In this document: positions 7,520 through 8,142 of the stretch, piece after piece | Layout of the letters: the number at the start of each line of letters is the position of its first letter | Numbering within the stretch: position 1 is the first letter of the stretch | Source: Octopus vulgaris | Taxonomy: Eukaryota | DNA length: 64,000 nucleotides | Reading direction: 5' to 3' | NCBI GenBank assembly: GCA_951406725.2 | Contig: OX597841.1 | Coordinates: forward strand, 6,324,001-6,388,000 | Notes under the pieces: generated by a model | Database searches by the model: none | The model's input: the letters and a program-made list of their open reading frames with translations, nothing else | What the model was told of the DNA's origin: nothing | Program-made: the position numbers and the translations under genes

Positions 7520-7631
7520 ACAACAAAATGAAAAAAAACACTATTTTCACATTTTATTCCCACAGCAGAAATTAATAAATAGATAAATGTAATGTTTCCA
7601 ACTAAATAATTGTTAATATAATTACAAATTG

Positions 7632-7843
7632 TCACACGCTGACGAGAGGTCAATACCTCGAAACTCGGGTCCGTGTGTATCATAAGTTGAAGACGGGAAG
7701 GATGACTTCCCTTTGCAAATACTGATAGGGCACAGAAAGTGTGTCTATGGCCAGCTGGAGGAGTGTGTCCTCCTGGGGCTAAAAACTACAGTAGCATCCA
7801 CCCTTAGGGGTTAGCCATATTGAAATGGCAAATATACGTCACG
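7632..7843 (+). mobile_element. Retrozyme-like insertion (~210 bp) with 14-bp TSD
   Basis: ATAATTACAAATTG at 7618-7631 and 7844-7857. The insert is absent from the paralogous flank at 16875-16890 and carries a hammerhead. Confidence 0.8.
7633..7677 (+). ncRNA. Type I hammerhead ribozyme with canonical core
   Basis: CACACG-CTGACGA-GAGGT caat ACCTC-GAAAC tcgg GTC|CGTGTG; predicted cleavage after C7671. Confidence 0.9.
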
Positions 7844-8142
7844 ATAATTACAAATTGATATTGGTTTAATAAATATACTGTAACTTTTTAGATAATTAAC
7901 TAAAAGTATTTCCTAACGTAAATTTTACTAAGAATATCTCAGCTTTCTACGAACATTCTAAATTTCAAACTAATTTTTCACTCTTAAAATTGAACTAAAC
8001 ACTGTTTAACGATGTCGCACTCTGCGCATCTGAACGTTTAAACCTCTTACTTATGAATTTAGACCTCAGATATTTTTTTGAAAAAAGAATTGGTTTATGG
8101 TTACAACTGACCACCGCCAAACTTGATTTGGTTTCAGAAATA

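What the first reader, a model, noticed from the sequence alone, without database searches (positions are those of the whole stretch)
7560..7880. Sense hammerhead just upstream of the caspase poly(A) signal, with a new AATAAA ahead of it
Seen: the AATAAA conserved behind the paralogs (16900; minus strand near 46780, 53210, 53910) corresponds to 7868-7873, 10 bp past the insertion. The ribozyme is therefore in sense within the predicted 3'UTR of the 4922 caspase. Only this copy has ATTAATAAATAG (AATAAA at 7574) where paralogs have ATTGATAAATAG. Known: a 3'UTR hammerhead lowers expression of rodent Clec2 genes. Inference: long isoforms self-cleave and lose the poly(A) tail, and the upstream signal bypasses the ribozyme.
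Basis: inference. Interest (0 to 1): 0.75.

Follow-up and report, generated by a model that had tools for sequence, protein, structure and literature searches.

The report
Clipped retrozyme hammerhead behind a caspase
A young jumping repeat with hundreds of copies left a clipped piece, carrying a hammerhead self-cutting RNA motif, between two poly(A)-type signals behind a caspase gene; the clipping removed a supporting helix, so it is predicted to cut poorly and is likely a tolerated passenger rather than a built-in switch.

Summary
The geometry is real: a type I hammerhead (7633-7677, Rfam RF00163, cut after 7671) lies in sense between AATAAA 7574 and the paralog-conserved AATAAA 7868. It belongs to a 5'-truncated piece (7632-7845, 14-bp target duplication) of a 353-bp tandem repeat with at least 474 exact ribozyme copies, a non-LTR retrozyme. 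'Only this copy' fails: a sister caspase about 25 kb before the window has the same insert and the same new AATAAA. The truncation removed the 5' strand of the family's 10-bp distal helix I; predicted native helix I falls from 0.48-0.63 to 0.00-0.13. The window copy also has a rare loop-3 change (2 vs 474 copies). The insert is very young (1 of 214 differences), so the new AATAAA probably predates it, and 3 of 8 ribozyme-free paralogs also carry an upstream AATAAA. The site is 1.7 kb past the stop, behind a decayed caspase tail; transcript ends could not be mapped. Most likely a weak passenger; a working switch is not excluded. The scan had no look-alike stretch, only a retrozyme-like candidate in a shark. 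A side find: the two caspases differ at 27 nonsynonymous vs 1 synonymous site.

The parts
4922..5908 (+). Intronless, prodomain-less caspase ORF (328 aa) with a basic C-terminal extension from about 5752 that only it and its sister have
   Evidence: (PF00656, E 4.9e-45)
5912..6722 (+). CA-rich microsatellite between the stop and the paralog-type UTR (about 330 bp in the sister)
6876..6970 (+). Decayed duplicate of the last ~30 caspase codons (70-72% identical over 76-97 nt to three paralogs, in-frame stops); the paralog-type 3' UTR starts behind it
7095..7522 (+). High-copy SINE-like repeat, absent from the sister locus, so inserted after the duplication
7574..7579 (+). Derived AATAAA (G to A against paralogs), shared with the sister locus; first canonical hexamer after the stop
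7618..7631 (+). Left copy of the 14-bp target-site duplication; its last four bases also match the element (microhomology at the 5' truncation)
7632..7845 (+). 5'-truncated piece of a 353-bp non-LTR retrozyme-type repeat, ending at the family's commonest 3' end
7633..7677 (+). Type I hammerhead: helix I 6 bp, core 7639-7645, helix II 4 bp with 6-nt loop, helix III 2 bp plus tetraloop, predicted cut after 7671
7668..7668 (+). Rare A to G change in the palindromic helix III/loop 3 (2 genomic copies with G, 474 with A; the sister has A)
7679..7689 (+). Orphaned 3' strand of the family's distal helix I; 8 of its 10 partner bases were lost by the truncation
7844..7857 (+). Right copy of the target-site duplication (first two bases shared with the element's 3' end)
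7868..7873 (+). AATAAA conserved at this position in 7 of 8 paralog UTRs; presumed ancestral poly(A) signal

Best explanation
This is a young, 5'-truncated copy of a 353-bp hammerhead-bearing tandem repeat (a non-LTR retrozyme) inserted in sense with a 14-bp target duplication into what is likely the extended 3' end of a caspase gene, where its ribozyme is predicted to cut poorly and the insert likely persists as a passenger. Shown: the repeat family, the truncation, the duplication, the sister locus, the loss of the distal helix I partner, the loop-3 change. Inferred: the element was copied from a multimeric or circular RNA by a Penelope-type enzyme, starting at the family's preferred internal site and falling off four bases upstream of helix I; without the distal helix the alternating CA/UG helix I would slip by two bases and pair into the core; the AATAAA at 7574 probably existed already, so many transcripts would end before the ribozyme and the insertion was tolerated. 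The locus was then duplicated with the insert, and the window copy gained a SINE and the loop-3 change.
For: Family: 40 of 40 scored candidates (of 2890) match all 214 bases at 98-100%, with neighbours at 353-bp spacing; 474 exact A-type ribozyme copies and 582 copies with the intact 5' arm. Monomer 42% GC, no ORF of 40 aa inside a six-unit array, fold z -7.3 with the distal helix closing it. Insertion anatomy: of 37 arms at 23 loci, 19 end at monomer position 214 as this one does and 12 at 255-260; 28 of those 31 run into (AT)n; 12 of 23 loci are head-to-head (loci chosen by best match to this insert). Folding: P(native helix I) 0.48-0.63 in a family copy vs 0.00-0.13 in the two caspase copies, active fold 1.6-3.7 kcal/mol less favourable, at 20 and 37 C and three context lengths; 40 shuffled-flank controls behave like the caspase copies (mean 0.02). 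42 of 46 sampled copies keep at least 8 bases of the 5' arm; 2 of the 4 that do not are the caspase pair. Rfam score drops from 32.2 to 27.7 bits with the 7668 change. Timing: sister insert differs from its nearest family copy at 1 of 214 sites and from the window copy at 1, while the flanking UTR differs from its nearest paralog at 13%, so well over nine tenths of the branch on which the AATAAA arose lies before the insertion (inference, assuming neutrality). 3 of 8 ribozyme-free paralog UTRs have an upstream AATAAA and a fourth an ATTAAA.
Against: Folding is secondary structure only; even the family copy's active fold lies 7.6-8.4 kcal/mol above the ensemble in this model. Core, loop 2 and U7678 are intact, and a different distal pairing with a 4-nt bulge is possible. 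Helix III (2 bp + tetraloop) is of the type that cleaves as a monomer in coral and mussel retrozymes (0.8 and 0.1 per min; PMC7229834 results), so no dimer is strictly needed. Window and sister differ at only 4 of 686 sites over 6723-7845 (SINE left out) vs 32 of 1665 in flanks (p 0.015; 44 of 1778 and p 0.002 with a microsatellite edge left in), which could be constraint, though gene conversion explains it too and the one change inside the insert hits the ribozyme. None of the four in-window paralogs has an upstream AATAAA; the three that do are upstream neighbours, two of them apparently broken genes. No Penelope partner sharing the monomer was found.
Confidence: 0.62

Rival explanations
1. 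One reading: the ribozyme is active in the long isoform, removes its poly(A) tail, and the 7574 AATAAA was selected as a bypass, giving a switch between a stable short and an unstable long mRNA.
For: Sense orientation between two AATAAA; intact core and U7678; UTR block conserved relative to synonymous sites and between the two copies; both ribozyme-bearing copies have the new signal; the Clec2d ribozyme cut reporter output by 80% (PMC2950038 passages).
Against: Distal helix I lost and helix I register predicted to slip; loop-3 change in the window copy; the two copies are one event, not two; insertion far younger than the branch carrying the AATAAA change; upstream AATAAA in 3 of 8 paralogs without ribozyme.
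Confidence: 0.15
2. The element lies outside the caspase mRNA altogether: transcripts end before 7500 at a variant signal, and the UTR-like block is the remnant of a decayed neighbouring paralog.
For: The block follows a decayed coding end at 6876-6970, 1 kb past the stop and behind 800 bp of CA repeat; that remnant is no closer to this gene's own end (71.8%) than to others (70-72%); UTR-like fragments without a gene also occur nearby and upstream of the ORF; variant hexamers exist at 5868-7024.
Against: No AATAAA or ATTAAA before 7574; the block shares a deletion with, and is the only genomic match of, the UTR of the closest paralog; it is better conserved than the remnant.
Confidence: 0.16
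3. With 7574 as the working signal, residual cleavage about 70 nt past the poly(A) site would act as a downstream entry site that helps termination and enforces proximal signal use, without making an unstable mRNA.
For: Position: cut at 7671 is 92 nt past the hexamer. The idea of downstream co-transcriptional cleavage aiding termination is recalled, not read (one search listed no paper that I opened); a role in choosing the polyadenylation site was suggested for Clec2 (PMC6155905 passage).
Against: Needs fast co-transcriptional cleavage, which the truncation is predicted to hinder; no sign of selection on the ribozyme.
Confidence: 0.07

Closest known systems
Metazoan non-LTR retrozymes (Cervera and de la Pena 2020, PMC7229834; read: results sections on coral, mussel, axolotl)
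   Same: Canonical type I hammerhead in a non-coding tandem repeat of 150-450 bp (here 353), GC under 50% (42%), long target duplication, strongly self-paired monomer; mussel units are 350-390 bp.
   Different: This copy is a truncated monomer lacking distal helix I; circular RNA not tested; I found no report of this family (search listings only).
Penelope-like elements and retrozymes as their non-autonomous derivatives (bioRxiv 10.64898/2026.07.22.740005, read parts 1-3 of 5; PMC11167929, abstract and first part of main text; PMC4209133, passages)
   Same: Internal fixed 3' ends, random 5' truncation, AT-rich targets, head-to-head arms; the preprint reports that exon-overlapping retrozymes in Xenopus sit mostly in 3' UTRs, are depleted from genes, and that 8 of 9 tested dimers did not cleave.
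   Different: No autonomous partner sharing the monomer was found here; the hammerhead is canonical, not the minimal Penelope type. Supplementary table 4 of the preprint (the 3' UTR cases) could not be seen.
Clec2 3' UTR hammerhead of rodents (Martick et al. 2008, seen only through PMC2950038 and PMC6155905 passages)
   Same: Sense hammerhead in or near a 3' UTR, upstream of a poly(A) signal.
   Different: Clec2 is a discontinuous type III motif conserved across mammals with measured activity; this is a type I motif in a transposon fragment about 0.5% old, clipped, with no activity data.

Membership tests
Type I hammerhead ribozyme (RF00163) | Conserved core and three helices in type I order | tested here: met
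   model 1-45 of 45, E 9.7e-5, 27.7 bits (gathering 34; family copies 32.2)
Type I hammerhead ribozyme (RF00163) | Internally looped distal helix I that docks on loop 2 | tested here: not met
   10-bp distal helix in family copies, 8 partner bases missing here; no covariation data, helix is predicted
Type I hammerhead ribozyme (RF00163) | Site-specific self-cleavage | not testable with these tools
   needs an in vitro assay
Non-LTR retrozyme | Tandem repeats of 150-450 bp, each with a type I hammerhead | tested here: met
   353-bp period, arrays up to six units seen; this copy itself is a partial monomer
Non-LTR retrozyme | Non-coding, GC below 50% | tested here: met
   42% GC; no ORF of 40 aa inside the array, the 2 listed lie at its edge
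Non-LTR retrozyme | Target duplication longer than 4 bp when present | tested here: met
   14 bp, 7618-7631 and 7844-7857
Non-LTR retrozyme | Highly self-paired monomer RNA | tested here: met
   z -7.34, 0 of 100 shuffles
Non-LTR retrozyme | Expressed as linear and circular monomers | tested here: inconclusive
   contigs of two runs only guessed to be RNA cover the family sequence; contigs cannot show circles or strand
Penelope-derived (pLTR) element | Sequence shared with the pLTR of an autonomous Penelope element | tested here: inconclusive
   no match to the Penelope pair in the window, no Penelope ORF beside any fetched copy; the genome's other Penelope families were not searched
Domesticated 3' UTR ribozyme (Clec2 type) | Conservation of the ribozyme across species and against decay | tested here: not met
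   insert 1 of 214 from its nearest mobile copy; the single change between the two copies is in the ribozyme
Domesticated 3' UTR ribozyme (Clec2 type) | Lies inside the mRNA and lowers expression | not testable with these tools
   only assembled contigs were served; 3' ends cannot be read from them

The most novel reading that the evidence does not exclude
A domestication caught at its start: a retrozyme hammerhead that still cuts despite the clipping sits between two poly(A) signals of a pair of caspases under diversifying selection, so poly(A)-site choice decides whether the mRNA destroys itself, and the two copies (loop-3 A vs G, with and without SINE) tune that differently.
Probability: 0.12. 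Interest if true: 0.65.

Novelty: new member of a known kind. Interest (0 to 1): 0.3.

Why it matters
As a passenger it is one more retrozyme insertion near a 3' end, a situation already reported in Xenopus, and adds an apparently undescribed 353-bp family with a clear Penelope-like insertion signature. If the clipped ribozyme does cut, the locus would be a rare, datable first step from mobile ribozyme to host mRNA control, with a natural paired comparison (window vs sister) and cheap tests. The host genes themselves (27 nonsynonymous to 1 synonymous difference, new basic tail) may deserve more attention than the ribozyme.

Tried and rejected
Expression and 3' ends: no RNA holder listed on record. 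Two runs guessed to be RNA gave no cover on the unique parts 6730-7065, 7546-7593 and 7882-8140, but the ORF itself is covered only by short contigs of depth 2-7, so this blank says nothing. No empty-site joint was among the 15 joints shown of 655. Junction contigs in X6 (7533-7657) and X7 (7817-8140) carry 26 and 29 element bases, under the tool's 31-base rule for bridging; taken only as a hint that the insert exists in organisms A and B. Obligate dimer: considered because helix III is short and palindromic (duplex -10.7 vs -8.9 kcal/mol with the 7668 change), rejected as a firm argument because 2 bp + tetraloop motifs cleave as monomers in coral and mussel. Covariation for distal helix I: a pattern search for related hammerhead families found only 2 point mutants; the only variant seen in the arm (4 of 46) keeps a G-U pair. 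'The UTR belongs to another gene': kept only as a rival, since it shares a deletion with the closest paralog. Penelope partner: not found (the protein search used the wrong strand and was redone). A distant paralog (L048) has neither the extension nor the insert. Exact protein look-up found neither caspase; the atlas gave only generic caspases. Martick and Scott 2006 (PMC4447102) is not held. In some searches the downstream flank was taken from 7860 instead of 7858, dropping two bases; no count changes.

Full report
Observation. The sequence shows a type I hammerhead on the + strand at 7633-7677. Rfam RF00163 matches it over the whole model at E 9.7e-5, 27.7 bits, below the gathering score of 34; nothing in the window reaches gathering. 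The predicted cut is after C7671. AATAAA occurs at 7574 and 7868 and nowhere else on + between 5701 and 8700. The 7868 hexamer aligns with the AATAAA behind 7 of 8 paralogous caspase UTRs, including 16900, 46785, 53215 and 53916. A 14-bp direct repeat at 7618-7631 and 7844-7857 bounds the insert, so 7868 is 10 nt past it.

What the insert is. Searched against the own genome (G000, 2.8 Gb; 'octopus-like' is my recalled impression and the wording of earlier notes, not a tested label), the 214 bases gave 2890 candidates; all 40 scored match end to end at 98-100%, many at 353-bp spacing. Exact patterns give 474 copies of the ribozyme's 3' half and 582 of its 5' arm. The monomer is 42% GC, has no ORF of 40 aa within a six-unit array and folds far better than shuffles (z -7.3). 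This meets the testable features of metazoan non-LTR retrozymes (PMC7229834, results read). At 23 loci chosen by best match, 19 of 37 arms end at the same base as this insert and 12 end 41-46 bases further; 28 of these 31 run into (AT)n, 5' ends are scattered, and 12 loci are head-to-head. Internal fixed start sites and AT-rich targets are reported for a Penelope enzyme (PMC11167929, abstract and first part of main text), and a preprint derives retrozymes from Penelope terminal repeats (10.64898/2026.07.22.740005, parts 1-3). Mobilisation by a Penelope-type enzyme is therefore inferred; I found no partner.

Not the only copy. About 25 kb before the window, on the minus strand, a sister caspase (91% identical protein) carries the same insert, duplication and ATTAATAAATAG, but not the SINE at 7095-7522. 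Insert and new signal both predate the duplication and count as one event.

Is it in the mRNA? The stop is at 5908. Then come 800 bp of CA repeat and, at 6876-6970, a decayed duplicate of a caspase coding end; only behind it does paralog-type UTR begin. The ribozyme is thus 1.7 kb past the stop, where paralogs have their signal 146-260 nt past it. Contigs identical to parts of the ORF occur at depth 2-5 in three runs guessed to be RNA; no silent control was laid, and contigs cannot show 3' ends. The point stays open.

Is it likely to cut? In family copies helix I continues past an internal loop into a predicted 10-bp distal helix. The insert starts four bases upstream of helix I, so 8 of the 10 partner bases are gone; 42 of 46 sampled copies keep at least 8 bases of that arm. 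Helix I is an alternating CA/UG helix. Without the distal anchor the native register has probability 0.00-0.13 against 0.48-0.63, and the active fold costs 1.6-3.7 kcal/mol more, across two temperatures and three context lengths; shuffled flanks give the same loss. Newt type I hammerheads needed such looped extensions to cleave as monomers, and loop-loop contacts raise rates about 100-fold at low magnesium (PMC6155905 section 4). The window copy also has G at 7668, seen in 2 genomic copies against 474 with A, which costs 4.5 Rfam bits and weakens the palindromic dimer helix. Against this reading: the model ignores tertiary structure; core, loop 2 and the U seven bases past the cut are intact, and that U is described as a key contact (PMC9217987 passages, which also report that designing for it did not raise activity in their hands); 2-bp helix III motifs cleave as monomers in coral and mussel. 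Weak cleavage is predicted, not shown.

Is the new AATAAA a bypass? The sister's insert differs from its nearest mobile copy at 1 of 214 bases (27 loci compared, L009 left out for an indel) and from the window copy at 1, while the UTR around 7574 differs from its nearest paralog at 13%. If the G to A change was neutral, it almost surely came before the insertion. Upstream AATAAA also occurs in 3 of 8 paralog UTRs that lack a ribozyme, all three outside the window and two of them in apparently broken genes, and these AT-rich UTRs hold 1-10 sites one change away from AATAAA. The simpler order is: signal first, insertion tolerated behind it. A quick compensatory change cannot be excluded. One result favours function: window and sister differ at 4 of 686 sites across this block against 32 of 1665 in flanks (p 0.015); gene conversion fits as well.

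Comparison and verdict. The Clec2 ribozyme lowers reporter output by 80% but is a conserved discontinuous type III motif. Retrozyme copies in 3' UTRs are already noted in Xenopus. Searches for a cephalopod retrozyme or an octopus caspase ribozyme listed none (listings only). The scan's earlier notes hold no look-alike stretch; one shark retrozyme-like candidate and notes on a differently wired hammerhead in this genome do not bear on the mechanism. Verdict: new member of a known kind, most likely a weakened passenger (0.62); working switch about 0.15; interest 0.3.

Side result. The two caspases differ at 27 nonsynonymous and 1 synonymous site (dN/dS about 7.7, Fisher p 0.017); against flank divergence the excess is weaker (p 0.08). 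Both keep the catalytic His and Cys motifs and share a basic tail absent from other paralogs.

Noticed in passing
window 4922-5908 and G000:C28:6302338-6303156 (-): Recently duplicated caspases differ at 27 nonsynonymous vs 1 synonymous site (p 0.017); a contig in run X1 mixes sister-type and other variants. Suggests diversifying selection; other pairs in the cluster have dN/dS 0.41-0.99.
   Followed up: partly
window 5752-5908: Basic, NLS-like C-terminal extension found only in this caspase and its sister; the window copy reads through the sister's stop into low-complexity sequence.
   Followed up: partly
G000 C28, C19, C5: Several clusters of intronless, prodomain-less caspase genes; 56 matches in the genome, about 20 on C5.
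   Followed up: no
window 4540-4921 vs G000:C28 near 6299.0-6299.4 kb: The 5' flank is 97% identical to that of a paralog whose protein is only 58-59% identical: promoter conversion or exchange.
   Followed up: no
window 4732-4797: The upstream region of the caspase is homologous to the start of the paralogs' 3' UTR.
   Followed up: no
L003-L041: Retrozyme arms end at two fixed positions about 43 bases apart, and head-to-head insertions mostly pair one end of each kind; a clean signature for the insertion mechanism.
   Followed up: partly
window 56296 (-) and 45188 (+): Two further minimal hammerhead-like motifs seen in a core scan; not scored.
   Followed up: no
window 58772-60409 (-) and 62093-63949 (+): Head-to-head pair of Penelope-like RT ORFs (RVT_1) with no similarity to the 353-bp monomer.
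   Followed up: partly
window 48950-49007; L037 (window +70320-70647): Old, 71-81% identical relics of the same or a related repeat.
   Followed up: no
window 27097-27942 (+) and 37441-38874 (-): Inverted pair of C2H2 zinc-finger ORFs.
   Followed up: no
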